A program made the position numbers and the translations under genes. Positions 3,006 to 31,013 of a DNA stretch of 33,034 bases are shown here, one piece after another. The notes beneath the pieces were generated by a model. The model did not search any database. It was not told the origin of the DNA and was given only the letters and a program-made list of their open reading frames with translations. Source of the DNA: Raillietiella orientalis (taxonomy: Eukaryota); NCBI GenBank assembly GCA_036172245.1, contig JAYWIR010000196.1, forward strand, positions 1 through 33,034, written 5' to 3'. How positions within the stretch are numbered: position 1 is the first letter of the stretch; each line of letters opens with the position of its first letter.

Positions 3006-3009
3006 TCAC

Positions 3010-8744: not shown

Positions 8745-8990
8745 TACAGTCATGCCTGCAGGATGAGGCCAAGCTGGAGATCGCTGGTACTTGGTCAGAA
8801 GTGTTCCATCGAAAGACCCTTAATATCACCCCTTCTTTACTTATTTTTTGTATCCTCCTCTCCCGCTTTGGATATCCCGTGAGTATATCAATGAGCTCTC
8901 CTATTGAACTTCTTTTTTTTGGTGTTGTTTTCCTTTTTGCTCTGGACGCTGGGTTTCCGGGTCGTTTATTTTTTCCTTCTAAATAAGCCT
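8745..8990 (+). mobile_element. Short 3'-terminal LINE fragment (copy F)
   Basis: CLQDEAKLEIAGTW resembles HLPDDASREIASIH of copy C. Followed by a U-rich UTR, a hairpin (tctgga…tccggg) and AATAAG. Confidence 0.5.
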
Positions 8991-9240
8991 TATGGCGTGA
9001 TCGGATGGCAAAGTTAGTCGGAGGGCTTTTATATCTCTCATTACCTGGAGGAGGTCAGATTCCACGTTCGTCGTCCGAATCCTAGGGCTTCTGGAAGCGC
9101 ACAGTCGGAGGTTGCTGCACCTCTGGCTTTTTGGATGCGAGAATACTGGTGACCCGAGCATAGTGAGCCGTAAGGTTTGCCTGAGGGAAGGGTGCAAACC
9201 AAACTAATTGAGAGGACAAGTCGAGCGAGAGTCTTTCCAC
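8990..9240 (-). mobile_element. Possible APE-endonuclease C-terminal remnant
   Basis: ORF 8979..9197 has …HP…ASRSPRI…LPSDHAI, resembling the SRID…SDH end of LINE APE domains. Weak. Confidence 0.3.
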
Positions 9241-9249
9241 TTGATCAGT

Positions 9250-9680
9250 GTAAAAGATGAACGATATGGCACGATAAAGGTGAAAAGTCTACCAGCGTCT
9301 GTGACCACCACGCAAAATGCAAGACCATGCGACGGCCTCTAGGCTGCTGGGCAGTTTTCTGCGGCAGTGGTGACCCAATTGTGCGGCAACTAGAACTCAA
9401 CTCAAAGAATGATCGAGAATTCTTCCCTTCCGTCTGAGAATCCGCGAAACTCCTGGGAATGTTCTCATGAAAATGGAGCTGGCATACCCACGTTACGAGG
9501 TGTTGCATCCTGTGGTAGATATTGTGTTGATGGGTGGAAATCTCGTGTGTGCCTTTCAAGGAACTGTTCGTTCCTCCTCCGTGCTTTTCTCAACAGCGTG
9601 GTGCTCCTCTCGACTAGGATGCCGCGAATGCTCGCAATGTGCCAAGAGGGGTGGCATTTCACATAAGACTTCGAGGTAAG
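9250..9680 (+). pseudogene. Degenerate exon-like segment, possibly KDZ-transposase-related
   Basis: RNSWE…VASCGRYCVDG resembles the CxxCG…VDG start of KDZ domains. Ends at a GTAAG donor near 9676. Confidence 0.25.
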
Positions 9681-11509
9681 AGGAGGACCACCCGCTTTCA
9701 GGCTTCTCGTAAATTGCGCTATTTCCCGTCGGAAGGTCTCACGTCCCCTTATATCCTGAAGAGACGCGCCGGCTGTGGTTCCTTGTGCGTTCCTCTCAAA
9801 GGGGGGTTTCTCATCCGACGCTGTGATTACGATTTTAAGGTGCATCTGCTGTATTTAAACGCACTTCTCAACCAAGAAAAGCTGCATTAGAAACGACGAG
9901 AAACCTTCTACGTTGCTGTCTTTGCGATCACGAAACCATGCACTAGGTCAGAAATGAAAACACAGATCAGCAGAGAGATCGAAACCATCTCGTGGAGACT
10001 TAAAAGGGAGGGCACGAATCCCAATGCACTTCATGCCCAATCACTTATTTAATTGTTCATGCTTTTGAATCTACGAATGCTCCAGACAATTTCTTCAGAT
10101 GACCTGCGAGCCTCAAAGTCCTCAACCTTTTTTGTGCCCCTTTTTTTAAATGCGGGTGATTACAAGAATCTGTGCTTCTTTTCCTTCGTGCGTCATGTTT
10201 CTTGTAAATGAGGACTCTGTCGTGGCCCATCAAGAACTTTTCTCAAAGCCATCGCTCCGACACTGACCTATAAAAGCTGAGCGACATCTAGATGTGCTCT
10301 TTGAACATGATGTGGCTTTTGCCACTCTCTTGTCAGATGTCCCTCTTGATGGTCATCCCGCAAAACCGGACGTTTCTAAAAAAACAAAAAAAACAGTGAT
10401 CAGCACGTCCTTTCAGGAATAGAGCAAACACGCAAAGGTTTGTAGCCAGAAGCGGAGACAGCTCCTTCAGAGGTCCTAAGTCGATATCACTTTGCAGTTC
10501 AACTGTTACTGCTGGGACTTCCGGAGTTCCACCTGGACCTGCTGTCGGCTTCCTTGAGCTAACATCCAGCTGTCCTCGCAGCACGGACGTCGGAGCGGAT
10601 GTTGCACCCGGAGGCTCAGATGCGCGAAGGAGAGTTTGGCGCTCACGAATCAGCAGGAAACACAAGCATAAGTTTGTTCCGACATTTTACATTTTGTTTT
10701 CTGCCACGCCAATGTCATTAAAGCAGTCCTGACGGAGACCTTTGGCTATTCAGTTGTCCAGTTGACAGCAGAGTTGCGCGTGTTTATGCTGCATCGGCAA
10801 TGAAACGAAGCAATTAATAAGAATGTGGGAATGGTGCTCCTGTGGGATAATCGATTGCAATTCCTCGCATTCGCAATAAAAAAAAGCATGAAAGGAGAGC
10901 AGGAGACGTGCACGCTGGAAATGACGTTACCCATGGCTACACCAGGTTCCGTACGCGTTTTATCCCCCTGTTCTTTCTCCCCTCTCAGGAGAACAGCCTG
11001 AGCTGCATAAGGATCGGCTGCCCAAGTTTCTACGTGACCCTTGTAACGGACGCCATGTGTGCAGAGCTGAAGGCACTTTAGGCTCTGAATCCGTGCTGCG
11101 CGTTCTTCTACCAAGCAGGAGTTGCCCATCATTTCAACATCTGCTGCAAGAAAGCAGGATTCACCCTAGAATTTTTGTCTCTGAGCTGAAACTTTGGAAA
11201 TTTTAGTCCATGTTTTGTGCTGTTAGTTCTGTTAAGCATGGAAGCCAACACAGAGCTGAAGAGTGGAATTGACGTTAGTCTTCAATGCAGCATGAAAAGA
11301 CAAGAGATTCAGGACTTCCTCGTATTGAAGAATTTTCACTTATTTGTGGATTTTCAAGCTTCCACTCGCAGCGAAGTGAGTTTTCGAAAACCACTGAATT
11401 CAAGATAACTGTAAAGGGATTTAAAGAAAAAGGTCGATTAAAAGCAATCCTCTGAACGCAGAACGCCATTGCTGCTCTGAGCATCATCTACGAAAGACGT
11501 TCCGAAAAA

Positions 11510-11870
11510 TGATGACAGTTTGTAAGTTTAGTGATACACGATCAAAGTTTCTTATTTGTACACCATCTGAAAGTGCCCCTTTGATCGCCCGTTGTGTGAC
11601 ACTTCGACACTCTTTTCATCATCTTCACTGTCCATCAATTCTTCACTGTGCTGCTTCAGGGAATCTCATGAGCGTCGCTTGTTCCGTACGAAACGTTCCA
11701 TTTTTCCTCAGCTGTTTGAGGATCATTTTCCTCATGTGCTCGCGCATATGCATCTCCGAATTGAAAAATAATCTTACACATGAAATGGCAATCGCTCTCC
11801 CAGATCTTCCTTCCATATATTTTCCCCGCATTGCTTTCATCAGACGTTGAGGGAACATGGACAACTTGCG
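11510..11870 (-). pseudogene. Repeat-derived coding remnant similar to 15545-15769 (possible KDZ C-terminus)
   Basis: YMEGRSGRAIAISCVRLFF aligns with FIHEEMSRRASAKVAAKVFF (ORF 15545..15769). Confidence 0.3.
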
Positions 11871-11879
11871 AACATCGAA

Positions 11880-12450
11880 GTTAGCCAAGAAACAGCGCAA
11901 AGGGCTCTTGTTTGGTAGGTGTGGAAACTTTGATCCTCTACAGGTGAGCCCACACGGTGTTTACTCCCAAGTCCACAGCGCGGAGCACAAACATGCCACC
12001 ACCCACTGGCCGCCGAACACTCCCCTTATATTGCTACGGCAATCTCTCTCTGCCCTGAGAGACATCGGACGGGTCACCGTCCTCATGGATGGAACAAAAA
12101 AATGCGGATCTCCCTCGCGGAGAAGGTTTCTAGGTCGAGGACACGCAACACTGCGTGCAACAAGGTTCTACCTGTGGCTTCGGCTTCTCATGAACCATCC
12201 AAAAGACGCATATCGCATCATAGAAACCATCATGGAAACAAACAACTCCCTATCTTGAGGGATCATCGCTAAGCATTGCTGATGGCAATTCCACAGAGGA
12301 AATTCGACGGCGCATACAAATCTGAGGAAAGAGTAGCATTAGAAGAGTGTTTCTCGGCATTTCCTACCGTCTCATGGCTCCTCTCGGAGCTGCTCTTGAA
12401 GATTCATGTCCATGTCGGCACCTCCGCCGTCGCTCCCGTTTTTTCTTTTT
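11880..12450 (+). mobile_element. Highly degenerate LINE RT N-terminal subdomains
   Basis: ORF 11857..12258 has HWPPNT (cf. NWRPIT), KKCGSPSR (cf. QxCxVPGR) and LLMNHPKDAY (cf. LDxxKAYD) in the expected order and spacing. Confidence 0.45.
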
Positions 12451-12619
12451 GCACCTTTAATGACGACGAACATTCTGCGCTCTGGCGAGAGAAACCTGAA
12501 CTCTCCCGAACGGAGTTCGTTCCGTCCTTGCGTGCGGGTGGCAGCTCGCAAGAGATGACAAACGGTCCACCATGAATGTCCTCATTGACCTTTGAGCGGC
12601 GTGTTGGTTCGCACCTCGA

Positions 12620-13570
12620 GGAATGCCAACCTTCAACCTTGCAGAAATAAATCTGAAAGGAAGGCCGATGTGGCGGTAGGCAGCATCCGAAACGCGCGAG
12701 TCGTGTACCGGAATCGTTGGAAGGATATCCAACCTCATCCGACTCGGAGGAACGACCTGCTTCTTCTTTCGATTCTCAGAAGCGCGGCCATTCGCGTCTG
12801 CAGCCCAGGAGCCGGCACGACTCGTGCTTGAAGTGCAGCGCCATCGAGCGTTTGCTCTTTCGGATACTTCCGCGGCAGAAACACCTGCGCGGAGGTTTCT
12901 CCGTGTCCAATCCACGGCAAAGCGAGCACATTGCTGAGTGCCTCCTCGATCTCCGTTGCCACTTCCACTTCTGAGGCGGCAGATGCGAATTCGGTGCAAG
13001 CAAGTCGCAGCCGTCTGACCTCTTGTCCAGCATAGAGCTCCGTTTCTTACCCTGAAGAGTGCCCGACGTGGTCGCGGTGCGGACGCCGTCCTCCCTGTCA
13101 TCCGGAAGAGCCCTGAAACTTCCCATCGCGACTACAATATCTGTCCAGAAAAACAGTGGTGACGAAGATGTCGCTGCTGTGTTCTGCTGCACCAGGGAGG
13201 AAGAATCTTTCGGGGGCAGAACCGTGCGTGTGCTGCCACGCGCAGAAGCGAGGAAAACAAACCAGCCGGTGATATCGTCAGCACGAAGGAACGATCTCCG
13301 TCAGGTTGGTCGTGTTGCCGTGTACGCCTCCAAAGGCCGGGAATCCATTGGCAGCGGCTGCATGCTTTGCCAGTGCCCAAGCGCTGTTGGGGTCGCAGGG
13401 TGCGGTGATGCTTGTGGAGATGACACGTCAAGCACGCGCTGCGGAAAGCACGCAGCACGTCGGAAAAGACAAGGAAGGAAGGCTCGCTGTGGCGAGATGG
13501 GATGCAATGAGGGATCGTTGCTCGGAGTTGATGGCGCGGAAGAAAGAACTGCCGATCGTTCTCATCTTTA
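12620..13570 (+). mobile_element. Degenerate LINE ORF2 APE endonuclease domain plus linker
   Basis: Across frameshifts: TFN, KADVAV..ETR (cf. D-x-x-x-LQET), AADAN (cf. GDFN), SRLQY (cf. SRLDY), TNQPV (cf. SDHxPV), then RWDAMRDRC as the linker W motif. Confidence 0.5.
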
Positions 13571-14044
13571 AGGCTTTCCATCATTTTTCTGCATCTAAGA
13601 ATACGGTAAAAAGTGTCATACGTCTTTGGTATCTAACAGTAACAGAAAACCGGAAATCGAATACCTTCATCTCCATCAAACGGCTTTGGACCTACATCCG
13701 TTGCAATGGTGTCTTCGCTGGAGAGCATGCATGTAACTCTGCTTAGATTTTTTGGTGCTCCGAAAAAACTGAGTTTTTCAGCAAACTTTCGGCACTGAGT
13801 CTAACTCCAACGCCTTTCATCTCACGTCCACGAGGCACCGAGGTGATTCGAGGCTTTGGGGTGCTGCTGTTCTAGCAGTCTCCCTGTCCACAGCCGTCGT
13901 GTGCTTCGAGTGCAGCCACAGAAAGTCGCGAGGATGGGAAACAGAAGAGCGGCAAGCGGCGAATGAGAAAGCAGTGCCTCAGGTCAAAAAAGAGAAGGGA
14001 TTTCACTTTCTGGTACTACAATGGAAGTATGATGACAAAGTCCC

Positions 14045-14960
14045 TTAAAGTTCTTTTGTGATTGCTGTTTCCCTTCCGGGTTTTTTCCTTTCTTTCGTAG
14101 TTCCCAAGTGCTGAAGAACCGTTCGCCTTCTTGTTGAGAGGTTCACGGAGCTCTTCAACTCTGACCACGGTGCGAGGAACTCCTCAAGGCTAGAGGATAA
14201 CACCGCAGGGTACACCTTATGGATCCAGGAAGACCCCTGGAAAAGGGATCCGTTCCTCCTACTCTTGGAAGGGAATCCTCGCCCAAGCTGTCTCTGAGGA
14301 GAGCCCCGAAGGTTGTCTCTTCCTTGTTCTTTCTGAGGCACCCCTCGGATAGGATACGCTTTACATTTCCCGCGCTGAAGAGAACCCCTGAGAAACGCTT
14401 CTTAATTTCCCTGAGGGGCCGATTCCTAAAGAAAGCTGCACGATTCTTGTACTCTGGAGAGGTGTCAGTCCACAACCTCACTGTGCGCGATGGGAGGTCT
14501 CCCTCCCTGAGGGGAGGGCAGGCTCTGTTAGCACAACTGAAGGGCAAGAGCCTTGGAGTGAGAGGGATTCTTGATTTCTTAAAGAATGCTGGAGGGAGGA
14601 CTTCCAATCCCGGGTGGTCAGCGGGAACGACCAGATCCCGGCATCAACCAGTGTCGCATCTGAACCTCCATACCAACTGGCGTCGTCCTGCAGGGGGAAC
14701 TCCAAGCTAACAGCGCATCCCCATTTCTCGGCCTTGACCCTTTGTTTTCACGCGGTCATGCCGGGGTGTTAGCGATGAGGTCACCCTTCGACTGACCTCT
14801 TTCGGCGCGGACTCTCGCCGCCACGGTTTAAAGAAGGCAGCACGGAGTTGCAAGGGGGTAAGCTGCAGACGACGTCGGATCGCGCGCGACAAGGCACTAC
14901 AAGACCTTTCTGCCGTTGGGAGCAGAAGGACTTCAGTAAAGCGTTCTAAGGCATTCAGAT
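14045..14960 (-). mobile_element. Second copy of the second LINE-like family
   Basis: Homologous to 5520-6120 (see that entry); multiple stops and frameshifts. Confidence 0.6.
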
Positions 14961-15000
14961 CAACGCAATCCAACGCAAAGCTTTCTTGCAAAGCTTTCTT

Positions 15001-15057
15001 TTCTTTTCATGGTTGGATCGGACGACGTCATCAGAGAACATCTGCTGCAGCCGGAAG
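15001..15057 (+). repeat. 57-bp direct repeat, copy 1 (partner 17996-18052)
   Basis: ttcttttcatggttggatcggacgacgt(c/t)atcagagaacatctgctgcagccggaag, 56/57 identical. Confidence 0.95.
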
Positions 15058-15320
15058 GGGAAGCTTTCTTGTTCCCCGCACCTGACACAGTCTGGGGCCG
15101 CACTCTTGTCCAGCAGTGGACTCGCAGGCTGCATAGGATCGTCCAGTACAAACACTGCAATGCCGAGTCCTGACGCTCCAGTGGAAGAGTAGAGATGTCC
15201 ACAAACACTCGGGAAATTTCCCCTATCTTCAAGAATTACGCGAACCGTCGGATGGCGTGGAACTCTGCTTAAGAGATGTGTGAGCCGACAGGCGCGGACG
15301 GCTCTTGAGTACTTACAGGA
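15058..15320 (-). mobile_element. LINE fragment (copy A-like zinc-finger region)
   Basis: DISTLPLERQDSALQCLYW and PDCVRCGEQESF match INTFTLPFKWQESAFLLQHW and PNCVRCGERESL of copy A. Confidence 0.75.
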
Positions 15321-15499
15321 CCAAAAAAAAGAAACCCTCCCCTTCTCAAAATAGAAGCTGAAAGGAAAACAGCGGAGACAGAAAAAAGACCCCAAAAGGA
15401 TTTTCATGAAGTTCACATGAACTTCATCTGTCATACGAAATCTTATGATCCATTGGCACTCAAGGATGATGTGGTTCGATGCCAGACTTAGAGAAATTT

Positions 15500-18400
15500 G
15501 ATGATGACCCGAACTATGGAGCACGCAGCTTGCGGTTGCGTCAATCATTCCATTTCTTTAACTTCGTCCGAGAAAAAAAAAACAGCGTCTTTGCTGGAAG
15601 AATTTCCTTCCATCCTATCATTCCTCTCCTCTGATCCACGAAAGAATACCTTCGCAGCAACCTTTGCCGATGCTCGTCGTGACATCTCTTCATGAATGAA
15701 TTGATGCAAATGAGCTTCGTGAAGAGTGTTGCTCTTCTTTCTTAGGAAGAGCAACATTTTTTGAATCATTCCCAGATTTTCCCAAGAAACGATGGGAATG
15801 ATTCAAAACGTGTCGACAAGCGTGAGAGACTGCCAATCATATTGAATTCTGGAGGTGAGGAGCACATTGAATTGGGAAAGTGGCACGTTACCTATCGTGT
15901 AGGAACCTCTGCGGTTCCCTCTAAAAATGCACAAGATAAGAGGGAAAGAAAAATACATTTCCAACAGATGAATGGATAAGTACGGAACGACCTTTGTTCA
16001 CGTGCTGTGAGGTTAACAGGGTGTGTTCCTTGGAAAAATTACCATACACTAATGAGAAAAGAATCAAAGATTCGAAGCTACTTCTCAGACCAACAGAAAT
16101 ATTCCAATGCGATGCAGCAGCTTTGCAAATTCCACATATCTGCCCTACAGATCTCTTCGAAGCCGAGCAGAGAATTAAATTTTTTAATAAGAAGCATCGA
16201 ATGATCGGCAATTCTCCCAAAGATATCCGCTAAACGGGAAACATCCCTGACGTCATCCATGTCGGTAGCATCAAAGACACACATGTGCAGACGTCATTTC
16301 TTCGTTCGCACGTCACTCCCGGACAGAATGATGGACTCGACGTTTTCTTGGGCACAGCAAACTCCATCCATCCCGCAGCAAGCGACAAAAGTGCACACTT
16401 TGACACGCAACACCTGAAGCGGAAGTTCTTTGGCTCAAAGCAGCCCGAGTCGGAAAACTCCAACAAATTTTGCTCAGAACCTCTACAGCCTAAGAGTTGC
16501 GTGGTGAGATGCTGCGTCAGTGTTGACCATCCCCCGCATTCCTCAGCCACAAGAAGTGCTGGGATGAAGGGATGATGCGAGAACTGGGAACTCATAGCAT
16601 GCACAGAAGGAAAAGGATCCCTTGCAGTGTTCCCAGTGACACGGAGTTGGACATGATCCTCTTACAGCGTTGCAATCTCCTTGGGCGTGCGCACCTGAAA
16701 TCGTACAGAGGAAAACCGGGAAGACACGCATAAATAAAACAACAAATCGGGACTGAGGTCCCCACGATCAACGGACTGCATGTTCGAAGTCGGGAAAAGC
16801 AAGGGATTTGAGGCGAAACTGAGTTATGAGAGATTCTTGATCGCCAGGAAGGAGTCACGAGCATTGTGATGAGTGGAGACGCACGATGGACCACGCATTG
16901 CTTGCCTTCGGTGCATACATACGAACACTACAGGGCGCCTCTGCTCAGGGGAAAAGAAAAGTTTGCTTTCATTGCAGTTCTTCTTGCGGTCAGCATATAA
17001 TATGGAGGTTTCGTAAGGTTGGCGAGCGCTGCTCACGCTGAAACGCTCCTTCCATTCTATGAAGGCTGCACATTAACCACCTTCGAATGGGAGGTGGCAA
17101 CATTCTCCTGCTTGCCACAAGGAGAAACACCGTCATTGCACCTTGCCCTTTGTCCGGATGGAATGTCATCACACCCTTCATTACAATCTTCATCGGCACA
17201 GACGTCGAACGGAAATGCTGTGACCACCCTGATACATAACCAAAATGACGGCTTTTCATTTCACTAGTGGATCGCATCGTTGAGGTGTCAGCGGATTCAC
17301 TTGAAATCCTTCTGCGTGGATGTGACCCAAGTGAGCAGGCATAGCTGACGAAACACACAGTGTATCGACGACAGCAGGAAAATTCCGGTGTTTGGTACAC
17401 TGCACTTACGGCGTCCAGAGGTGCTAAACGGGTTGCGCGTCCAATGCACTAACAACGCTCCCTGCGAGTGTGGAAGAGATGTACTGCAGAACTGAGGTGA
17501 AAGGTTCAACCTCACCATAGCAATCCGCTGGAGAGCAACATCTGGAACTGAATCTAAAAAGCACCGCCGTTTGCGGATTCATTTGGATACCTCCAATGGA
17601 AAGCTGCTGCTTCATTCTTCAGCACTGACTTCTGCAGTTGCACTTTGCTTTGGGTGGGGCAGTGAATGATGTGCTGCATCTCACGCGAGATTCGCGCTCG
17701 AAAAGCGTACTTCAACGCTACTGGAGACTCAGAAACGGAAATTTGACCTTGGAGTAAAACTGCTGTGGCTCTGATTCTGAAAAACCCTGTGGCTGTGTTA
17801 TCTCAGCGATCACGGTGGGATGTGGACGGGGCATTATCAAACTTTGATGCTCTAGAACCGTCCAATGTCTCGAGGTTTTAAATGGATGGCTGAATGCTAC
17901 TGATATGTTTGATTGGTCCACCTGCGGAACAAGCCTCTGAGTGGAATGCTAAATAGCAGACAGCCTGCAATTGCAATGAAAAAGAGAGTTCTTTATTCTT
18001 TTCATGGTTGGATCGGACGACGTTATCAGAGAACATCTGCTGCAGCCGGAAGCAGATCTGGTCAACAGGAGTGCTCAAATGCTGAAAGTGTGCAACATCG
18101 TGCTGACCTAAGAATTTATGGACCCTTTTTCTTTAAACGTGGATTCTGCCAGAAGATGCAGAAATCTTCAAGTTTCAAGAGGGGCTCCTGGGTGGAAGTG
18201 GGAAATAGGTGGCCTCGACGCGATGGGAGTTTGATCCAAAAGGTATCTTAGGGAGTGTAGAGCATGCTGTGGAGACAAAGAATCCTACTGTGAGCTTCCG
18301 GGTTTGTTTCCTGATTGCCATCAAGCTCTCCAGGAAGCGGATTCTGCAGCCAGTGATTCTTTGCCTTTGCATCAAAGCCAACAAGTGTGGATTGACCCTG

Positions 18401-20450
18401 GTCAGGGCTGCTCCAAGCATGCACCAGGGTGATACTTTTACTTTGATTTCATGTATCGCTCTGTGTCTGCACATGGCCCACTCTTTTAGGTTGTTTATAT
18501 CCACTCTGAATGTTGTAGAAAGACTTCCAGCCGCTCCCATGTTTGAGAAGCAATCTTTCCTGGCATTTGATTTGTGCACGCCCTCGCAAATGCCTTTCAC
18601 TGGAGGAATAATAGGAATTCAGAATAAAATCCCAATGAAAATGCGGAAACGGACACTGGAAAACACGCAGAGCTGACGCATACAAACATAGAAATAGGCG
18701 TGTACAAAGAACGTATGCATGTGCAGAACAGGAATTCGCATGGACGACGGTAGTCATCAAGAAGGGTCATTGCAGACACGAGGAAGCCCACACGGAAGAT
18801 GTGCAGCTCCATCAGGTGGTTGCACTGCTGTCATGATGAAAGAGATATGGGAGGCGTTCTCAGAAAAGCGACTTTTGCTGCTCGAATAATGACTTTTGGT
18901 TTCGGTGGGTTCGATTCCTCTCTGAAGTATTGCCGTGGTGCTCTAAAGAAAGTTTGGGCACATGTCACTCTCTCCATTCGCTTTTTTAACCACCACACAT
19001 TCATAAAGCCACAAGATGTTTCTTCTCTTGAAGTAAATGTGTAATGTTCTCCAGGCATGTGCTTTCTCCGCAAATGAGCGTCCCTTATCAGTGGTCGCTA
19101 TGGGATGGTCCACATCTGGGCGCTCCTCCAAGATTGTTACAGCAGCAGTGAGTTGCGTATCTTCTTGATCATTAGACACCACACAACGTTGAGTTGATGG
19201 TAGAGAGACACATGCAAGGCCTGTGCTAAAGATGGTTACAACTCATCTCCATGATGGGGGATTCCTGAACTTAATTCTTGTCGAACGCTCGCCGATGATC
19301 AACAAACTCCTCGCATCCCTGAAAAGAGACTGCCTACTCTACCATAAGATATATCGAAAGTAATTCGACAGCAACTCTTGAAGAACGTGTTTGTGCCAAG
19401 TCAATGAGAAGAGCAAAAAGTCAGTGCATGATGAGGGTCGACCAGCGAGACTTTCTCGACCCGACGCAATATACCACCATCATGAGCATTCGGATTTCGC
19501 ATTCGAATGAACACACAGAGATATCAGCCCTCGAAATTGCAGGGCACCATTGGGGCACGTCAAATAGCGTCCAGAAATGTACGAAGGCGACCCCCAAAAG
19601 CTGAAACCGAGGGTTTCCTTGCCCAAAGAGAAGAAGGGCTGCTGAGAAAAACTGCTGAATTGAGAAACTCGCAATTATCGCTCACATCGATTACATCCGA
19701 TTTAAGTATGAGCTATTCCTATTCTCTGCCTCTGCCCATAAACAGCGGTCTTCATCCACATGGAATTCCTGTGCACTGAAACTAGTTCTGAATTCCATGC
19801 ATGCAGGATTTCCCAATTCCATCAAGACTTCGATGTTAAGAGAAAGCGGTCCGACATGTGGAGAAGAATTTGATCGAAACTCGCGCATAGCAACTCCAGA
19901 GATGAATGCGGCCAAATGCGGTGATGCCTCCAGGTGCTGCATGCACTTGCAGAACGTGGCAACCGAACCCGGAGTTCCCATTGGTATCATCAGGTGCGGA
20001 AAGATGACAAAACGGTGCACCTTCTCCATTTCAGCTCATCTCGGGACAACCTTCTCCCAATAACCTTCGAGTTTCATCTGTGCTCCACCTGAGGACATTC
20101 TGCTTCCATTCGAAGATCCTTCTCGGACATCCTTTCCGAGTGTTCCAGAAGATCGCCCCTTGCATCTACCCATCTCGGTCAACCAGGTAGCTGCAAAATT
20201 TTCCTCAGGTAAATATGGATCCCAGCCTTCTGCTTTTATGCGGTCAGAACGAGTAACCTACGAGCTATAGAGAGAGACTCGAAAGAAAAGCAAAGCGCAA
20301 TAGATAACAGTTGATGACGAGGACATGAAGTGAGTGATTTTGGACTTCGCTGCAGTTCAACACAGCGGCAAGGGCACGAATTCATAGCCCTCAAAGATCA
20401 ATGAACTGAACGGAAAGTCCTTAGAAAACAGAAAAAGAATGAGGTGAACC
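15500..20450 (-). mobile_element. Cluster of degenerate intron-containing KDZ/Zisupton-like transposase remnants
   Basis: Minus-strand exon-like pieces in order: TFCKCMQH…H (SWIM-like), LTCPNG, TGIFLLSSIHCV…QKDF, FPFDVCADEDC; then a second core VFVCMH…NARDSF, PGFPLYDFRC, IKKFNSLL. These resemble the KDZ CxHG, ES..D, YDxxC and EQxNS motifs. Many stops. Confidence 0.45.
17996..18052 (+). repeat. 57-bp direct repeat, copy 2 (likely donor, inside a minus-strand exon-like segment)
   Basis: See 15001-15057. Confidence 0.95.
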
Positions 20451-21993
20451 TTTCATGTGGTCATTTGACATATACTCATAGCCAGACCAGGACGAAGTCA
20501 CATCTTTGGGTGGGTGTGAACCTGAATGGAGGACTGCGCTACTTTTCCAGGAGTTTCAATCAGAATGGCGGGATCGGCATTCACGTGTGCGAATCATAGC
20601 AACTCCCTCCAGCGGCTACCATGCAAAAGAAGGTGGACGCAGGTGAAAGAAACGCTGCAAATCGAGCTTGGTGGATAAGCAGGAAGCGTGCTGTGCGCAA
20701 AACAGGGTGCATCGCTTTCAGAAAGGGATCTGTGGTCTCGGGCTGATGGTATCTTTTGTGCACTGCCAGTGAAAGTAATGAGGAAATGGACTCAGTCAGC
20801 TTCATCTTCGGAAACTATCCGAAAACATCGCCTGCTTTGCAGGAGGTCTCCGCACCGACACTCTTCAGTGATTTGTGCAGAAACGGCAGGAATGCTTCCC
20901 GTCCTCAAGAAAAGTTCTGTTCCGGAAGGACCACGCTTGACGGAGCGCTTGCAAGGTCACTCTTCAAATCAGGGCACCGATGCAGGGAAATGCCACACCC
21001 TGCTGAACGCCGTGTCGCCGTTCGTCGCACGACGGCTGATGCTTTCCTCTTTCGCGCGTACCAGCAGAGCAGTCCTCCGGGTGGCGCTGCAGACGACGCG
21101 ATTCCCGAAGACGCTTTCGCTCATCTGAGAGGAGTGTTGCAGATTCGGAAACAAGTTGAACTGCAAGTTCGGATGGAGGCAACTTGTCCCGTGCTGGGAG
21201 CCGAAGTCATTCGTGTAGCGAAACTTTCAAGGTCGGGGTGGCACCTCTGGGCAGATTGTTGGGCCGTTACTCATGGGGCTTCGCAGGATGCTTCCTTTGA
21301 TACCGAAAACTCGAGCCCTCTTCTCCAGAATCCTCATCCATATGTTTTTTCAGGAAGAGCTAAGCAAACACCAGCAGATTGGAGATGGAGCTCATCCTGG
21401 GACTCCTCTTGGCCCATGCTGGCTACTTTTTCGGAGAAGCTGCGAGGTACAGCTCTGTGCTTCATTTTTGCTGAAAAGTCTGTGTCATACTTCTTGGAAA
21501 AGGTTCTTTAGGTGTGCGATTGTTTCTTGTGATTGGAAGCCAAACTGCATGCATTTCTGTTTCCTTTATAGTAGGAGAAAATTTCCGGAAACAGAAGAGT
21601 GTCAAGTGATTTCTATGCTTGGCTTGAAGATCGTTCTCTGCAGAGAAAACACATTTTGGGAACTAACTGCCTTAGTTTCCTCCTCACTTTATCAGGTCTT
21701 CTCATCTTTCAAGGCCCACCAAGAAGTCGGAGTTACTGCGCGCTGTCAATGAACAAGTATAATTTGACTGCAGATGTCCATGCACGTGCGAGGAAGCAAG
21801 AAGACGAGCCAAGGAGTACGAAATGCCCGTCTTCAGTAATGGCACGGTGAGTTGTTTCAGCAGTGCGTTCGAGCACAGGCAAAGATGCAGCTCCCGGGCT
21901 GCATGTCCTTGCAACAGCAGAGTTGGCTTCCAAGCTGTATCCATCTTGGAGGCAGCTTGGAAATATCCATCTGGGAGCCTCATAACCATCGCC

Positions 21994-24900
21994 ATGAGCG
22001 GAGGAAAGCACCATTTGGTAACATTGTGGGCTTTGCGCTTCATCCTTGACGACATTCCGTCGTTGCTGGGGGCAACCGCACGGTTTTCGCTTTCGATATG
22101 GGTGCGTCGGTTTCATGGGAACCGTTGTGGAGTCCTATGGTGGCCTGAGGGGTATTCCTTGACTTCGCAGCAGCCTTCCAATGCAGGAATTTTGTTTGCA
22201 GAATAAAGTGTGGTCCCTAGCGTGGACAACGACGTGGCTATGTGGACGCTTTGGTGCATTCAGTCCACTCTCTCTCATTGAGAGGATGTCGCGCCACCCA
22301 GGAAGGAATTTCGGGACGGCTTTCTCACCGATGCAGATCATAGAAAATCCAGTAATCTTCGTGTGGAGGATGACCCATTCGGGGGCCGTTCCCTTGTCTG
22401 GTTTAGGGGTGGGAAAGGAATCATGAAGGTACCGCGAGGGGAATATCTTGCGCGATGTCTTGTGTATGGGCGAAAAGACCCAAGGCGAACTTTCGCGAAG
22501 ACTGAGTTCCCAAGTGAGATCCGTATGCAATTTACCACTGTACTTTGTTCTTTTTGTTTCAGAATTACTACTTGAAGGTGAAAATTGGACACCCCCAGAA
22601 AACTGCTCTTCTCCTTCCGAATTCACAAAGGCGTGATCTTGTGGTTATTTCGGATGACTCCGCTAAATCTATGAACGGTATTTTCATTCACGTTATAGAA
22701 ATGAAGATGATGACGAATTTTGCTTTCTAGGAAACACCCGCACAAATAAATACAGCACGTCCAATTCGGACACGTATTCGCTCATGCAGGAGCAGCTTGA
22801 TGAAAATGACCTAGGAGTGGGACAGATTGCGAAGGAAAAAATTCGGGTGCGTTCTCGTGGGGATCATTGTGATCGTTGTGATGCATGCAGTCCAGGACCC
22901 ATCAGGATTTCCCTTAGATTGCGTTGTCTGGTGATGATGTAGCGGGAATTGGTGCTTTCTTTGTGACTCTGGGGTTTCAAACTTTTTTACTGAAAAATCC
23001 GGTTCCAATGCACCACCGAGTGCTTGGATATGTAGGGCGGACGAAGCGTTCAAACCCCAAAACGGAAAGATGGCGCATTTTCCGTGGTGTTCTGCTCAAC
23101 ACACGGAACCGTTTCCTGTCAGAGAGCGGTGTTCGAATCACGTGAGCGCATGCGCATTTGTGCTCCTGTTTTCGGGAGGCGCTATCCTGGGCAATTTCAA
23201 GCTTTCACTTGAAAATTTGGAACATTTCGATTACTTTCGCAGGAGAATGCACTTTTCCTGTACTTCCAGGTCGCAGGCCACACTTTCAAGGATGTTTCTT
23301 TCTCCGTAATCAGAAGGAGCGTAGCTGACAAGAAAGGTTATTCTACAAGCTTGGATGGGTTGTTTGGACTCGGTTCTTCTGCCGGGGACCAGGATCTTTC
23401 ATCGACAGCGTTTCTGGACCATTTCGAAAAGCTGATACCTTATCCTCTAGGCCTGAGATTCAATTTTCTCCTGTACAGGTGAGATGCTCACGAAAAATCT
23501 CTCTTTCCCACAAAGAAGCACCCGTCCTTCACACGAGTGCTTTCATCCCTCACCGAAGCGCTCGAGATGCGATCCGTTTTTCCTACTCTTCCGCAAAGAG
23601 ATGTCCTGAAAGGAAACGTCTCTCGTATACGAAGGGGGAAAGGACACACCTAACGTACGGCACCCCTTCTGGTCGAAGTACCACAAACACTTCTCCTTTC
23701 CTTAATTCCTCAGCCGATCCATACTATACGTAGGGTTACTATGTGTGTTTGCATATGTGATACATACATATGAAACGCACATGGAAATATCGAATTACAA
23801 AAAAAAACAATGAGTGCGTATGAAAATAATGCGAAAGGAATGTTTAAATGCAAAGGAATCTGAAAAATCAATTAACCACTCTGGTCTTTCATCTTCCTCA
23901 TTTCCAGCCCTCCACGAGTGAAACTGCCTCAGGAAGTGGCGGATCCCATTCTCAGCATCTGCATCATTCGATCAATGGACGCGTTTCTTTCTCGATATTT
24001 ATATACTCGTTCCATACGTATTTACCGTGTGTAGAAATGCATGCCACTACATAAGAGAACACATGTATTTGTGTCTTATCATCATTTATATATATATTGT
24101 TTAAGATGTATCATTAATTACATTAATTAACATAATTTTGCACGAATATCGCCATATAAATGCTTCACAGGCATTTGTATTCTTTTCCATCATCTTTATA
24201 CCACATAGTGCTCTGTACGTATATGTTGATGTATAAAGATAAAGATAAGGATGAAATGCGTTATGTGCTCATCATTACTTATAACAATAATATGTATTCT
24301 TATAGATGTTAATAAACGTGTACGTTAAAATAACTTTGTGAGTGGCTCTACATCGAAATTTAGATAATCAACTTTTGCATTTACTTTGGATATTCTTCCA
24401 AAAATATTTTTTCCACATATAAATACGGATTACTAATAATGCGCATAAAGAGCCATATTTTATGATCCTTTGTCCTTTTGACCATTTCGGATTTTCATAG
24501 GCACCTTCCACCTGCCCTGTCCACCAAAATGCAAAGACCGCCAGAGGGCAATGAAGGGAATCGCTCCTCTTATTTGCCTTTTCCCTTCTGTACCCTCGCG
24601 TGATCTGAACTCGGGGGGGAGGGGGGCATCATTCTCCACGGGATTATTCTATTTCTCACTCTCCACCGGCACGTTCCATTCTCTCACATCTGCACGATGG
24701 GAACCCGGTTGTTGCCATGGTTCCGCCTCTGTGCACATCTGGATGCGAGGCTCATCACGGATCTTCCTGCTGAGTTCTTTTGATCTGAAGCGGGGCAAAA
24801 AAGTCAAAACCCTTGTCGAAACGCAGAGCACCGCCAACAGATTCCCCATTTCTTCATCTTTGAGGTGCTTTCTCTCGTGGCTTCTCAACACTTCCCGATA

Positions 24901-26266
24901 CCAAGAATGGGATTCATCAGTGGCATTCGGGAAGCGGCCGAGGTCGTCGATCTTCATGAAGGAGCTCCCTCACGATGGCAGTTAGCTGCTACACTCCAAA
25001 CAAGCAAACACTTGGAAAGTGTAGCAACGACTTGCACGCGTGGGTGGTACTTGGTCGCGCACCAAAAGCCGTTGGCAGGCAAAAAATTGGAAATTCTTAT
25101 TGGTCGGCGTGAAAAATGCTCTGTGCGGAGATCGTGTCTTCACGAGACTGAATCGGTTCTTAATACCAACCGTGCGTGAAGGGAAGCCATCGGCTAGCGC
25201 GTGGTGATCGATGGAAACAGCACGTTTGCTCATTGAAGATTGGGTGACATAGTGGACAGATCCTTCTATGTAGTAGCCCTTGAAGAGGCTGAAGAGTTGT
25301 AAAGGCAGTTCTTGCATTCCCCACCATTTGTGACAACCTGTAGTTTGTTGCACATCAGTCGAGCTGCGAAACAAGAAGAGGACAAAGGCGAGGTCTGGTT
25401 GTCTAGCCTAAGAGAATGTTGGCTTGTTGGCAGGCAGCGTTGACTCTCGTGTTAAATTCTAGACACCATTAAAACGATGCCCCCCATCTCAGATCTTTGT
25501 AAATTTCAATATCACTAAAAGATAATTAATGATGACTTGCTTGATGTTACTACTTCTAACCGATTCGCTCCTTCTTGCAGTGAGCCAAGCAGAAACCACG
25601 AAGTTGGAAAACTGTCCATAGGGATGCAAAGGCAGCAGAGCATTCCAAACGACTTGATAATGGAAACTATTGGCACTGGAAATTGGATCTTTCCCATCGA
25701 CAAGTAAGTGATTGCAGAGAAATATGCTGGAAAGCGGTTAACAGCTAGCATCTCTTTTGTTAAGCGCGGTAGTGGGATCAATGAGAATCTGCAAGCACAA
25801 TTGTGCTTTATTTGTCGTTTTTGACGATCCTTGTCTTCAACTTCCCAAACAAGCGTACCGCAAATACTCTGAAATGATAACGAATGCGGATAAGAGTGGA
25901 CGGCTCATGAAGGTGAGTTACAGCATTTTGTAGGTCTATTTTCACAAGATGACATAGATACCTTGTTCCAGTGCTAAGGATGTTCCCGAATTCAGCTTCG
26001 TCATGGGAAATCGGCAGTTCAGCTTCAGAGGCTTGGAGTACACGAGGAAGGTAAAGGAACAAACGAAACGTCTTCAGGAAAAACACGAAGAGGTTTTTCA
26101 GGTGGAATCCAGGAGTGGTGCAGGGGATCAATGCGAAATATTGATCCGAGCACAACCTGAGCTAAAGAACAAGCAGATAGCATTGGGAACCCTTTTCTTG
26201 GAGAAGTATCCAACGGACTTTCATCCCACCGAAGGGAAAATGATCGTTGGAGGCCTGCATTCCTAG
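21994..26266 (+). CDS. Spliced gene for a pepsin/cathepsin-D-like (peptidase A1) homologue lacking both catalytic Asp
   Basis: Core exons 22563-22677, 22731-22846, 23270-23478, 25581-25703, 25765-25912, 25958-26050, 26102-26266 all have GT-AG introns and splice in frame to 322 aa with A1 hallmarks: YYLKVKIGHP, KYSTSNSDTY, LDGLFGLG, FNFLLY, GKLSIG, WIFPID, CKHNC, IPC..VPEFSF, LGTLFLEKY. The 5' exons (21994-22101, and 22202 or 22337 to 22408) are tentative. Confidence 0.85.
22563..22677 (+). CDS. A1 homologue exon, first active-site region (DTG replaced by NSQ)
   Basis: tttcag|NYYLKVKIGHPQKTALLLPNSQRRDLVVISDDSAKSMN-G|gtattt. Confidence 0.85.
22731..22846 (+). CDS. A1 homologue exon, flap region
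   Basis: ttctag|(G)NTRTNKYSTSNSDTYSLMQEQLDENDLGVGQIAKEKIR|gtgcgt; 53-nt upstream intron. Confidence 0.85.
23270..23478 (+). CDS. A1 homologue exon, DGxxGLG motif
   Basis: ttccag|VAGHTFKDVSF…SLDGLFGLGSS…LRFNFLLY-AG|gtgaga. Confidence 0.9.
24600..25400 (-). mobile_element. Degenerate transposon remnant (KDZ-like family) inside the 2.1-kb intron of the A1 gene
   Basis: ECKNC, VSIDHHAL and YTF…FACLECS parallel TCPNG, VSLVDPHHAL and YTF…SCG at 19570-19010. Confidence 0.35.
25581..25703 (+). CDS. A1 homologue exon
   Basis: ttgcag|T-EPSRNHEVGKLSIG…GNWIFPID-AA|gtaagt; phase matches the upstream exon. Confidence 0.88.
25765..25912 (+). CDS. A1 homologue exon, second active-site region (DTG replaced by VFD)
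   Basis: gttaag|C-AVVGSMRICKHNCALFVVFDDPCLQLP…RLMK|gtgagt. Confidence 0.88.
25958..26050 (+). CDS. A1 homologue exon
   Basis: acatag|IPCSSAKDVPEFSFVMGNRQFSFRGLEYTRK|gtaaag; 45-nt upstream intron. Confidence 0.85.
26102..26266 (+). CDS. A1 homologue last exon
   Basis: tttcag|VESRSGAGDQCEIL…IALGTLFLEKYPTDF…IVGGLHS*, cf. WILGDVFxxKYYTxFD…RVG. Confidence 0.9.
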   Translation: MESRSGAGDQCEILIRAQPELKNKQIALGTLFLEKYPTDFHPTEGKMIVGGLHS

Positions 26267-26329
26267 CAGAATGTCGTTCGCGGCTGCCGCGAAATGAAAG
26301 TGACTTCGTTATGAACCACGCATACTCGT

Positions 26330-27500
26330 GCTCGTTCGTTTGGGCTTCCTTGGGTTCAGAGGAAGCGGAAGTGACACGCCAGCAGATGGGGTTCACCACA
26401 GCAACGAAGGCACCTTTGCACTTCATATCGGCACGCAAGGAGTGCACAGAGCACATTCTTTCAGTGATGCGCCCTCCACATCGCATGCGACGCACCAAAG
26501 TGCACGCAGCACGCTTTCCCATTCCCTTGAGCTTTCCCTGTCGGCGAATGTGTGCGTACTTTAGGCCGCCGTCGTTAGAGAAAGTCTTCTCAGCTACAGC
26601 AGGCGCTTCATCCTTTGGGCACCTTGGAAACAACAGCCCCTCATCCCGACGCGGAGTCGAAGCGACCTTCGGCCGCACGCTCAACCACCCTCTGAGCTGG
26701 AAGGCGTGACTCAAGGGGACTGCGGTTCGACTTTTTACGTGGCGCTGGACGTGGCGAGCGAGAAGGAGGCGGGGGAGGGAATGCACGAAGATTCTGTACT
26801 CCCTCCATCGCCTCCTGAATGTAAAGGGATGGTTGCCAGCGTGCCTGCCCCGTGTGGGCTCCGTTTGTCTGTACGCTCTCCCAGGCGTACGTGCTTTGTC
26901 AGTGCACCTGTGGATCCCGTAGCTGAAACATTGTCGTAGGCGTAGCGCTTCAGTGTTGAAAAGGAAGGAGCCGCAACACTTGGTTCTTCCACTAAGGAAG
27001 GACAGGAGAGATTGCATCCTTGTCTTCCAAGTCTATGGAAGTGAAGCGTCTACTCTGGATGAATCATTCCTCGTTCCGACATGGGAATGGAGCGCTCTGC
27101 CTTCTTCCACAGAGTCCTGTGCTCTTTTCCGTATCAGTGGACAACCGTGGTGGTCCACCTCACATGGACAACCTTCCTCGCGGCGAAAGCGGCTTCGCGG
27201 AACGAGCAACGCAAGTGTGGAACCGCGCACCACTGTGGGTAAATTTCGAAAGGTTCGATGGGAGTCTTCAGTAGCCATGCTGCAGCGCACATGGTGAGGA
27301 ACAGAGGGGCAAGTTGCTTCTCGAACTCGAGTTCGCCGGACATGAGTTCTACATCTGGTATGTGGAGACACCCAAATGCTGTGGCAGTGCCTCGTTGTGC
27401 CACGCACTGCCATTGGAATTTTCAAGAAAAAGTCTGGACAGCGAATCAATCCACACTGACCTTTTCGGCAGTGAGAACTCGGGTCTTCGAGGTGGAAGAA
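26330..27500 (+). mobile_element. Degenerate LINE 5' UTR and ORF1 remnant (copy I)
   Basis: VVVHLTW and LEFAGHEFYIWYVETPKCCG match MMVHLTG and LEVANEAVDHWYVGKPRYCG of ORF1 at 31652..32110. Confidence 0.65.
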
Positions 27501-29107: not shown

Positions 29108-31013
29108 TTCATCTACTTTGAGTTGGTGCTGAGAGCGTACAGGCTCACGCTGGCCGTCCTGCCTGGAGCCTCTCCATGCACGTCGTCCGTTCCAGCATAC
29201 TCCGACGACCTTCTGCTTCTGTTGCCCATGTCCACTCCGCCGGTCGGAGACTTCTCCGAGCTCATCCGTCGTATAGCGGGCATGAGCGTCAACAGGGCGA
29301 AGTGATCCGTCGTACCTGTGGGTGAGTCGTAGGAGGGACAGGCCGACTGGATCCGCCTGGGGATCCCCACGGTCAAGTACTTCAAGTACCTTGGAGTACC
29401 GTTGGGCGACTTCTGCTCGTCAGAAGCGTGGTCTGTCTGTGTTCAAAAGGCAGAGATGGCTCTCGGTCCGTTCCTGGAAGGCAAGTTCGTCTTGCCGGAA
29501 AGGGCGTGCATATGGAACACTTTTCTTGCTCTCCTTCTCCGCCCCTTGTTTTTTGTTTGCCCGCCTCCTACTTGGAGGAACGCAGAGCCTCCAACGCAAA
29601 GCCTTGTGAGGCGCTTTACGCTCTCGGGTTCGCCTCAAAGATTTGGTGACGCCACATCAGGACGCAGGCTTGGGCATCCTGACCATACAGAAGATTGAAC
29701 TGCAAGTGCAGTTCCGGGTTCTATCCCTATGTGGGAAATTGTGGTCTAGTCACTGGTGTGCTCCGGCTCGCCATATCCTCCAGCGATGTGTCGGCAGTGC
29801 AGGACTGCTTTCGTTGCTGCCGCGTAACCTTCGCCGAAGAACTGAATTTGGCTACCCTCTGAGGCATCTCTCCTCGTTGTTGTTAGCCCATTCCTGGATT
29901 TCCTGCCGCCCCTCCAACTGGAATGCTCAGCAGCAGGAAGCTCTGGAGCACTGGACTCCCACTTTGGATGTGCGTCCAGAGCAACTGCGACCTCTTAAGG
30001 GCCTCTTACACAAACCGCTAGGAGTGATCCTACAGGACTGGTCGCTTTGGTCCCGGGTAGCCGTCTCACCCATCGCCGCAGCGCTGTCTGCTCTCAGGGC
30101 AAACAACGACAGTAGCCAACCGGCAAGATGGGAGTTCTTCTGCAGCATTGCAGGAGTGGAAAGACTGCTGAGCGGCTGCAAAACAAGCGTGTTGGTAAAA
30201 GCTGCCACTCCTAGGTACCCGGCAAAGGGACTCCTCCGGTGGAGTGAGGTTGTTGGATTACTCCCCGAAGATCTCGTGGTCCCTTCCTTGTGTGTGGACA
30301 CCTCCGTGTTCCCGCTTCGATGGAAACAGGATGTTCTGCTTTTCCTGCACTGGGGATTTCAGTGCAATAAGCGCAGACACTTGGTTTCCGGGGGAGTCGC
30401 CTCCCCGAACTGCCTCAGGTGCGGGCCGATAGAATCGCTTACGCACCTGCTCCTTGAATGCACTGACTTGCAGGAGTTATGGCGGAGACTTGCTTCGGCA
30501 CTTCGACGTCCCCAGTACACTGCCATCGACCTGCTGCTATGCTTCTTCAGCGAAGATGGGCTGGATAAAGGCGCTGTGATTGCAGCAGTCTGTTGCATCC
30601 GCGCCATCGTAGCGGCCCGCCGTAAGCTACAAGGAAGCTCTCAACGGATGGACGCCGCCAGGATAGCCTCGAACCGAATGACGGTAGCTCTCAGGTGGCC
30701 TCATCTGTCCAGAAAAGTCTCCAGGGAAGTCGACATCGTCAGACAGCGCTTCTATGAAGATGAGGAACGTTTAATGCCAAAGATCCCTTACCCCACACTC
30801 CACTGTATTTTTGTTTGTTCTCTTTTGTTTTGTTTATTTTGTACCCCTGTGCCCCCGAATCCTTTTTTTTGAAGCCGGCCTGCATGCCGGTGGTCCTTCC
30901 AGGCTAAACCTTTTGTATAGGCGTTTCTTGTGTCTTGAGGGGATATAATTTCCCTTCAAGTTTGTGGTTTGTTTTCACGAATAAACGTCCCGGCGAGACC
31001 GGGTTCAAACAGC
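29099..31013 (+). mobile_element. L1/Tx1-like LINE copy D: 5'-truncated within RT, complete 3' end
   Basis: PLLF, YSDD, VNRAK*, FKYLGVPLG with stops, then open 409-aa ORF 29643..30872 with CLRCGPIESLTHLLLEC. AATAAA at 30980-30985. Confidence 0.92.
30934..31013 (+). other. LINE 3'-terminal structure of copy D
   Basis: cttgagggga 30934-30943 / tcccttcaag 30951-30960 (10 bp, one G-U); AATAAA 30980-30985; cccgg 30989-30993 / ccggg 30999-31003; aaacagc 31007-31013. Confidence 0.7.

What the first reader, a model, noticed from the sequence alone, without database searches (positions are those of the whole stretch)
22563..26266. Intact pepsin-fold gene with both catalytic aspartates and the flap tyrosine lost: candidate pseudoprotease
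Seen: seven exons splice cleanly to 322 aa with no stop or frameshift, in a region where nearly everything else is decayed. Gapless alignment to the pepsin consensus gives FDTGSSNLWV -> PNSQRRDLVV (Asp32->Asn) and CQAIVDTGTSLLTGP -> CALFVVFDDPCLQLP (Asp215->Val). The flap YGxG motif and the first disulfide are absent. Structural motifs (DGLFGLG, LGTLFL, CKHNC, the IPC…QC pair) are kept. Known: A1 catalysis needs both Asp; inactive or atypical relatives exist (some pregnancy-associated glycoproteins, Bla g 2, plant xylanase inhibitors). Inference: a maintained non-enzymatic binding, inhibitor, storage or secreted effector protein, with a cleft remodelled with charged residues (RR on one lobe, DD on the other).
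Basis: partly seen in the sequence, partly recalled or inferred. Interest (0 to 1): 0.75.

Follow-up and report, generated by a model that had tools for sequence, protein, structure and literature searches.

The report
Stop-bearing copy of dead-pepsin gene family
This arthropod gene belongs to a fast-changing family of secreted pepsin look-alikes that have lost the residues needed to cut proteins, but this particular copy carries an early stop codon and is probably a non-working version of an intact twin elsewhere in the genome.

Summary
The seven exons splice to 322 aa without a stop. Asp32 is Asn, Asp215 is Val, and the flap tyrosine and first disulfide are gone. But they are exons 3-9 of a nine-exon cathepsin-D-type gene. 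I found the signal exon (21385-21446) and the propeptide exon (21696-21846), which holds an in-frame TAA at 21760-21762. 'Intact' therefore fails for this copy. The contig is ~95% identical to a C36 region whose copy is open, so it is probably a null allele. The genome has 11 further family loci: 9 open, 2 broken. None keeps a DTG motif, and the 'RR/DD' cleft is not conserved. Most codons are neutral or constrained, but about 9-16% fit omega 2.6-3.7, enriched at the old substrate cleft; gene-conversion mosaics are clear. Best reading: secreted, non-catalytic binders with a diversifying cleft, like tick RmPAP, PAGs or mite SMIPPs. Expression and ligand are untested. The scan noted such dead pepsin genes before in other windows of this genome.

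The parts
21385..21446 (+).
   Evidence: Same 62-nt phase-2 exon found in all 12 family loci; best 9-residue hydropathy 2.4. No signal-peptide predictor was run.
21696..21846 (+).
   Evidence: Homologous exon with conserved donor in 9 other loci, 82-151 nt
21760..21762 (+). In-frame TAA (codon 43 of 393) in exon 2: the lesion of this copy
   Evidence: the two C36 copies with a near-identical exon have a sense codon here
21769..21789 (+). Four alternating Cys in a prosegment extension seen only in the 151-nt form of exon 2
21772..21773 (+). Cryptic in-frame AG downstream of the stop: the only plausible splice bypass found
   Evidence: Score 6.9 against 13.0 for the homologous acceptor; below all 28 long-intron acceptors of paralogues (lowest 7.1)
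22563..22677 (+). Exon 3: N-lobe psi loop, Asn at the Asp32 position (22620-22622); first disulfide lost
22731..22846 (+). Exon 4: flap region, shortened, no Tyr75 motif
23270..23478 (+). Exon 5: keeps the hydrophobic-hydrophobic-Gly (DGxxGL) motif
25581..25703 (+). Exon 6 (123 nt, same size as in this genome's cathepsin D)
25765..25912 (+). Exon 7 (148 nt, same size as cathepsin D): Cys206-Cys210, Val at the Asp215 position (25814-25816)
25958..26050 (+). Exon 8 (93 nt, same size as cathepsin D): Cys249
26102..26266 (+). Exon 9: Cys282, second hydrophobic-hydrophobic-Gly motif, stop
25651..25852 (+). Tract diverged from the C36 twin to paralogue level (dN 0.46, dS 0.91; intron 6 31% different), inside DNA otherwise 96-100% identical
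26027..26179 (+). Second diverged tract against the twin (end of exon 8, intron 8, 5' half of exon 9)
13636..26698 (.). Block 95.6% identical and collinear with G000:C36:1987797-1974737 (4473-8751 likewise 95.4%): the contig is probably the other haplotype of that locus

Best explanation
The gene is a nine-exon descendant of cathepsin D in an unidentified arthropod, and one member of a genome-specific family (8 distinct open genes found, plus a broken pair) that lost both catalytic motifs, the flap tyrosine and the first disulfide. SHOWN: gene structure, loss of catalytic residues, family size, open frames, mosaic exchange between neighbours, and fast change at cleft positions. INFERRED: intact members enter the secretory route by the signal peptide, fold as two-lobed pepsin-type proteins held by two kept disulfides, and use the opened, flap-less cleft to bind rather than cut a protein or peptide. 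The partner differs between paralogues and changes fast (host, prey, microbe or mate proteins, or protease inhibitors soaked up as a decoy). The window's own copy stops at codon 43, before the whole mature domain, so it most likely makes no product: a young null allele (or young dead duplicate) of the open gene at C36:1.975-1.980 Mb, as expected in a birth-and-death family.
For: Intron phases match, and exons 6-8 have the same sizes (123/148/93 nt) as the genome's cathepsin D. hhalign 98.5%. No Asp at either catalytic column in 10 of 10 modelled copies. 9 of 11 other loci are open over nine exons, whereas 0 of 300 neutral simulations stayed open at 0.4 changes per site. dN/dS is 0.47-0.79 in 28 paralogue pairs, upper bootstrap bound below 1 in 22 of 28. 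M2a beats M1a (LRT 32.9; 12-31 in six subsets or variants; 0.1-2.2 in 3 null simulations). Cleft columns are 27% identical against 42% elsewhere in the family, the reverse of the five DTG-bearing genes (46.5% against 38%). The stop sits in sequence with no coding gap against the twin in exons 3-9 and equal exon 1-2 sizes, which argues against a sloppy consensus. Precedent: tick RmPAP is inactive and binds haemoglobin (PMC6345952).
Against: No read or transcript was examined, so expression of any member and the reality of the stop are untested. About 58% of codons fit omega = 1, so much of the protein is weakly constrained. Gene conversion and uncertain loop alignment can inflate M2a. The cleft list is recalled, and the contrast with polar non-cleft columns is modest (p 0.011; well-anchored subset p 0.023). 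A weak in-frame acceptor could bypass the stop. Allele versus recent duplicate was not settled. No ligand is known.
Confidence: 0.62

Rival explanations
1. The window copy is functional after all: the TAA is a consensus error in a small contig, or is skipped through the in-frame AG at 21772-21773, giving a shorter prosegment.
For: Exons 3-4 have 0 differences from the open twin in 231 nt; no second lesion anywhere; paralogues tolerate an 82-nt exon 2; weak acceptors occur in this family's short introns.
Against: The stop comes with two adjacent substitutions and no indel. The homologous acceptor at 21695 is strong (13.0) and the cryptic one (6.9) scores below all 28 long-intron acceptors, though those were scored in-sample. 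A 1.9% change in exons 1-2 matches the background between the two contigs.
Confidence: 0.2
2. The family is a bulk secreted or structural protein (yolk, cuticle surface, gland secretion, cement). The cleft has no job and drifts; the omega>1 class is an artefact of conversion and alignment.
For: About 58% of sites near omega 1; no invariant cleft residue; net charge ranges from -17 to +12; Bla g 2 and Lma-p54 are gland or cuticle proteins of unknown function (PMC9541408).
Against: The positive class survives removal of gap-near columns, of the window row, and in each lobe alone. Cleft columns are faster than polar non-cleft columns. Conversion tracts among the three C36 copies homogenise exons 1-2 and introns but leave mature exons distinct.
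Confidence: 0.13
3. The whole family is decaying cathepsin D duplicates without function.
For: High overall omega (M0 0.79); 3 of 12 loci are broken (window, two C24 copies).
Against: 9 open nine-exon frames with kept splice sites at dS up to about 1.2; neutral decay left 0 of 300 frames open at 0.4 changes per site and 2 of 300 at 0.2; 21-33% of codons at omega about 0.2.
Confidence: 0.03
4. An atypical protease in which the two Asp just after the old Asp215 site act as catalytic residues.
For: Two Asp lie 2-3 residues after the old site in this copy. Single-Asp relatives with reported activity exist (HAP, PMC11313796; BYC, PMC6345952).
Against: Exon 7 has the same length as in cathepsin D and aligns without a gap in the MAFFT alignment, so the Asp pair falls on Gly217/Thr218 (hhalign opens a 3-residue gap here). 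The first of these columns reads D, K or E across paralogues. Asp32, both Thr-Gly pairs and the flap are also gone.
Confidence: 0.02

Closest known systems
Cathepsin D / renin / pepsin (MEROPS A1, Pfam PF00026), including this genome's own cathepsin D on C25
   Same: Nine exons (stated for mammalian A1 genes in PMC2682831, passage); same intron phases and three equal exon sizes as the C25 gene; both hydrophobic-hydrophobic-Gly motifs; two of three disulfides.
   Different: Only 18-21% identical; no Asp32, Asp215, Thr-Gly pairs, Tyr75 or Cys45-Cys50; short prosegment.
RmPAP, pseudo-aspartic peptidase of the tick Rhipicephalus microplus (PMC6345952; abstract, introduction and results read)
   Same: Arthropod, signal peptide, no proteolysis, binds a protein (haemoglobin, KD 3.35e-8 M as reported).
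   Different: RmPAP lacks only the second Asp and is described as a single protein. Here both motifs and the flap are gone across a multi-gene, fast-diversifying family. No sign of close kinship.
Pregnancy-associated glycoproteins of artiodactyls (PMC2682831; passages)
   Same: Large duplicated A1 family with nine exons, intact genes beside pseudogenes (18 genes and 14 pseudogenes in cattle).
   Different: Placental, mammalian. That many PAGs keep one or both Asp is recalled, not checked here.
Bla g 2 / Per a 2 / Lma-p54 of cockroaches (PMC9541408; passages)
   Same: Secreted inactive A1 proteins of arthropods with unknown or binding function.
   Different: Far from this family (profile E 0.05, weaker than renin). 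That Bla g 2 keeps both Asp is recalled.
Scabies mite inactivated protease paralogues, SMIPP-C and SMIPP-S (PMC7815109 abstract; PMC4031079 search listing only)
   Same: Same strategy: a family of secreted dead protease paralogues in an arthropod that act by binding.
   Different: Papain and trypsin folds, not pepsin; host targets shown, whereas the lifestyle of this organism is unknown.
Plant xylanase inhibitor TAXI, basic 7S globulin, EDGP (PMC11313796; passages and section 2.3.2)
   Same: Pepsin fold kept after loss of the C-domain Asp; psi-loop geometry little changed.
   Different: Plant proteins; not related by descent to this cathepsin-D-type gene structure.

Membership tests
Pepsin family A1 (homologue) | Sequence homology over both lobes | tested here: met
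   hhalign family versus five DTG-bearing genes of the genome: 98.5%, E 2.4e-15, residues 2-309; PDB renin E 1.5e-6; Pfam Asp E 0.004 on the last ORF alone, 17.1 bits, under the 19.9 cut-off; atlas 10 of 10 best hits in one family or clan, but recognition value below its threshold
Pepsin family A1 (homologue) | Nine-exon cathepsin-D-type gene with signal and prosegment exons | tested here: met
Pepsin family A1 (homologue) | Bilobed three-dimensional fold | tested here: inconclusive
   Only a 102-aa C-terminal frame with an intron inside could be folded: pLDDT 62, no match at E<=0.001. The spliced protein was not folded.
Active A1 peptidase | Asp-Thr/Ser-Gly in both lobes | tested here: not met
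   0 of 10 modelled copies have Asp at either column. The broken C24 pair shows Asp at the 215 column but without Thr-Gly.
Active A1 peptidase | Flap Tyr75 motif | tested here: not met
Active A1 peptidase | Measured proteolysis or pepstatin binding | not testable with these tools
   Bench test
Functional pseudoprotease gene (this copy) | Open frame from ATG through the mature domain | tested here: not met
   TAA at codon 43
Functional pseudoprotease gene (family) | Open frames under constraint | tested here: met
   9 of 11 other loci open; dN/dS below 1
Functional pseudoprotease gene (family) | Expression and secretion | not testable with these tools
   No reads could be examined
Pregnancy-associated glycoproteins | Artiodactyl placental A1 clade | tested here: not met
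   Genome has 14 arthropod cuticle-protein (PF00379) matches over the cut-off among 16 candidates
Bla g 2 / RmPAP groups | Close kinship to these proteins | tested here: inconclusive
   Bla g 2 E 0.05 and tick cathepsin D E 0.005, both weaker than renin; no tree with these proteins was built

The most novel reading that the evidence does not exclude
The family is a variable binding repertoire built on the pepsin scaffold: an arthropod keeps many doubly dead cathepsin D copies whose former substrate cleft is driven to diversify by an antagonist (host, prey, microbe or mate). It reshuffles them by gene conversion and carries both deeply diverged alleles (C-lobe tracts at paralogue-level distance between the two haplotypes) and null alleles, as in immune or self-recognition loci. 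Several other separately inactivated pepsin lineages in the same genome would be parallel cases.
Probability: 0.2. Interest if true: 0.65.

Novelty: new variant of a known kind. Interest (0 to 1): 0.3.

Why it matters
Dead pepsin relatives are known, and so are families of dead proteases in mites and ruminants. I found no printed account of an arthropod family that has lost both aspartates and the flap and then diversified the cleft (six searches; open-licence papers and bioRxiv only). If the binding reading holds, it adds the pepsin fold to the scaffolds used for fast-evolving recognition proteins. For this finding the practical point is a correction: the window's copy is the wrong one to study, and the open C36 copy is the right one.

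Tried and rejected
RNA evidence: no RNA holder was listed, so no reads were laid. Word-indexed protein searches: none at E<=0.01 among 90 candidates for the last ORF and among 8000 for the exon-5 alignment; weak evidence by the tool's own note. Full HMMER scan of 1.84 billion representatives with an 83-position profile: 12 hits, best E 5.9e-5, none close; the 7 of 12 I read look like generic A1 proteins. Pfam on single exons: 1 of 6 pieces hit Asp. Folding the C-terminal frame: low confidence, no structural match; uninformative. A 21-nt intron after exon 3 gave a frameshift and was rejected. The acceptor at 23242 is in frame but was rejected for 23269 by paralogue comparison. A 48-nt cryptic intron removing the stop was rejected: donor score 1.2, below all 56 real donors. 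Donor of the diverged C-lobe tract: no sampled paralogue exceeds 60% nucleotide identity there, so conversion from an unassembled copy and an old balanced allele cannot be told apart. The 18S rRNA gene did not let me place the animal below Arthropoda. The Rhodnius A1 paper had no passage on inactive members (PMC5736985, 2 passages). Earlier-finding look-ups by sequence, near this place and by words returned nothing. Supplements of the papers were not read; they could list inactive A1 paralogues.
Full report
Setting. The window is the whole contig C196 of a 210-Mb, 491-contig assembly. Fourteen of 16 candidates pass the cut-off of the arthropod cuticle family PF00379, so the animal is an arthropod; I could not place it further. 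LINE reverse-transcriptase remnants lie near both ends of the window (4 of 17 long frames tested had a Pfam hit, all of retroelement type).

Observation. The seven exons splice to 322 aa with GT-AG introns and no stop. Homology to family A1 is firm: a profile of 9 family members matches a profile of five DTG-bearing genes of the same genome at 98.5%, E 2.4e-15, over 296 columns, and a C-terminal profile finds renin in the PDB at E 1.5e-6 (37 sequences at E<=1, all A1 types). The genome's own cathepsin D (C25) has the same intron phases, and exons 6, 7 and 8 have the same sizes, 123, 148 and 93 nt. This fixes the register: Asn at Asp32 (22620-22622), Val at Asp215 (25814-25816), no Tyr75 motif, Cys45-Cys50 lost, the other two disulfide pairs kept. 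One alignment (hhalign) opens a small gap near Asp215, so that column is slightly less certain than Asp32.

The seven exons are exons 3-9. Comparing upstream DNA of the paralogues gave a 62-nt signal exon at 21385-21446, found in all 12 loci, and a propeptide exon at 21696-21846. In the window this exon has an in-frame TAA at 21760-21762, codon 43 of 393, ahead of the whole mature domain. The two C36 copies with a 98% identical stretch have a sense codon there. A bypass would need the in-frame AG at 21772-21773; it scores 6.9 against 13.0 for the true acceptor and below all 28 long-intron acceptors of seven paralogues, which were scored in-sample. An assembly error is possible but not favoured: the change is two adjacent substitutions, and there is no coding gap against the twin. 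No reads were available to settle it.

Allele or duplicate. Window 4473-8751 and 13636-26698 are collinear with C36:1.998-1.975 Mb at 95.4% and 95.6%, and a further 1.4-kb piece matches C36:2.007 Mb inverted at 96%. A small contig ending in LINEs and shadowing a large one is most simply the other haplotype (inference); a recent segmental duplicate is not excluded. The C12/C40 pair at 97% is a similar case.

The family. The last ORF found 15 matches at 12 loci, the window included (a lower bound). Nine of the 11 other loci have open nine-exon frames. The two C24 copies, 99.9% identical, have no detectable propeptide exon and a frameshift in exon 6. Counting probable alleles once leaves 8 distinct open genes, 29-56% identical to each other and 18-21% to cathepsin D. 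None of the 10 modelled copies has Asp at either catalytic column; the broken C24 pair has Asp at 215 without Thr-Gly. The 10 rows form one side of a 99/99 branch in a 22-row tree; the 11 non-family models are rough, five further loci of that call were left out, and the root is a midpoint.

Selection. In 28 paralogue pairs dN/dS is 0.47-0.79 at dS 0.43-1.24, with the upper bootstrap bound under 1 in 22 (Nei-Gojobori; L056 and L060 were used only against their twins). Neutral mutation of one open gene left 0 of 300 frames open at 0.4 changes per site, so the frames are maintained. Site models written in my own script on 9 sequences favour a positive class: M2a over M1a LRT 32.9, with 26% of codons at omega 0.21, 58% at 1 and 16% at 2.7. 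It held in six variants (LRT 12-31) and not in three null simulations (0.1-2.2). Thirty cleft-lining columns (pepsin numbering, list recalled) have mean omega 1.46 against 1.02 elsewhere (p 2e-4), 1.16 for 160 polar non-cleft columns (p 0.011), and 1.35 for the 17 best-anchored ones (p 0.023). Cleft identity is 27% against 42% elsewhere in the family, the reverse of the active genes (46.5% against 38%). Caveats: gene conversion and loop misalignment can mimic this, and no true surface control was possible.

Mosaicism. L056 and L057 are 100% identical over window 20900-22300, L056 and L058 over 20900-21100 and 24700-25100, while their mature exons are near 50-70%. Between the window and its twin, mature codons 1-170 differ at 3 sites and 218-260 at none, but codons 171-217 differ at dN 0.46 and dS 0.91, and intron 6 at 31%. 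Because synonymous and intron sites diverge too, this is an old or imported tract, not recent selection between alleles. No sampled paralogue is the donor (at most 60% identity).

How it most likely works. Shown: anatomy, loss of catalysis motifs, maintenance, mosaic exchange. From established knowledge: A1 catalysis needs the aspartates, above all the C-domain one, and the fold survives their loss (PMC11313796, section 2.3.2). Inferred: intact members are secreted, non-cutting proteins that bind a changing partner in the opened cleft, as tick RmPAP binds haemoglobin (PMC6345952, first of four parts read) and as mite SMIPP-Cs act on fibrin (PMC7815109, abstract). The partner is unknown. This copy is probably a null allele (about 0.75 taken alone); the binding role of the family is about 0.8; jointly 0.62.

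Novelty and verdict. Inactive A1 proteins are known: PAGs (PMC2682831, passages), Bla g 2 and Lma-p54 (PMC9541408, passages), RmPAP, TAXI. Six literature searches showed no arthropod family with both aspartates and the flap lost and a diversifying cleft; subscription journals were not covered. The scan has already noted dead pepsin genes, mosaic pairs and fast flaps in other windows of this genome (AI notes, the shared claims retested here on my own loci). New variant of a known kind; interest 0.3.

Noticed in passing
window 21769-21789: The 151-nt form of exon 2 (window, L056, L057; partly L065) has a 15-codon prosegment extension with four alternating Cys, absent from the 82-106-nt forms; possibly a metal-binding or cross-linking patch.
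   Followed up: no
L072 (C30), L073-L075 and L082 (C1), L080 (C21), L081 (C26), L083 (C106), L085 (C36:455 kb), L086 (C8), L087 (C9): Many other A1 genes of this genome have lost one or both DTG motifs by different substitutions and mostly fall outside this family in the tree: several separate dead-pepsin lineages beside five genes with both motifs.
   Followed up: partly
L061 and L062 (G000:C24:64500-94499): Inverted pair, 99.9% identical over 9.9 kb, without a detectable propeptide exon and with a frameshift in exon 6: pseudogenes of the family.
   Followed up: partly
window 20500-22400 and 23900-25300 against L056, L057, L058: Gene-conversion tracts of 93-100% identity cover exons 1-2 and introns but spare the mature exons of the three C36 neighbours.
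   Followed up: partly
window 25704-25764 and 25913-25957: Short introns with unusual acceptors: an AAG acceptor at 25762-25764 and a purine-rich one at 25957; the family's short introns are 42-65 nt.
   Followed up: no
window 262-843 (-), 1206-2558 (+), 2509-3141 (-), 29610-30869 (+): GC-rich LINE remnants (RVT_1, zf-RVT, zinc knuckle) in both orientations at the contig ends.
   Followed up: no
window 8751-13636: Stretch not collinear with C36; 12131-13500 matches C36:2007107-2008468 inverted at 96%, while 9000-12130 has no long match elsewhere in the assembly: a structural difference between the probable haplotypes.
   Followed up: partly
L067 (C25) against L071 (C25) and L069-L070 (C13): GC content differs strongly between loci, 36% at cathepsin D against 56-61% at other A1 genes, even on one contig.
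   Followed up: no
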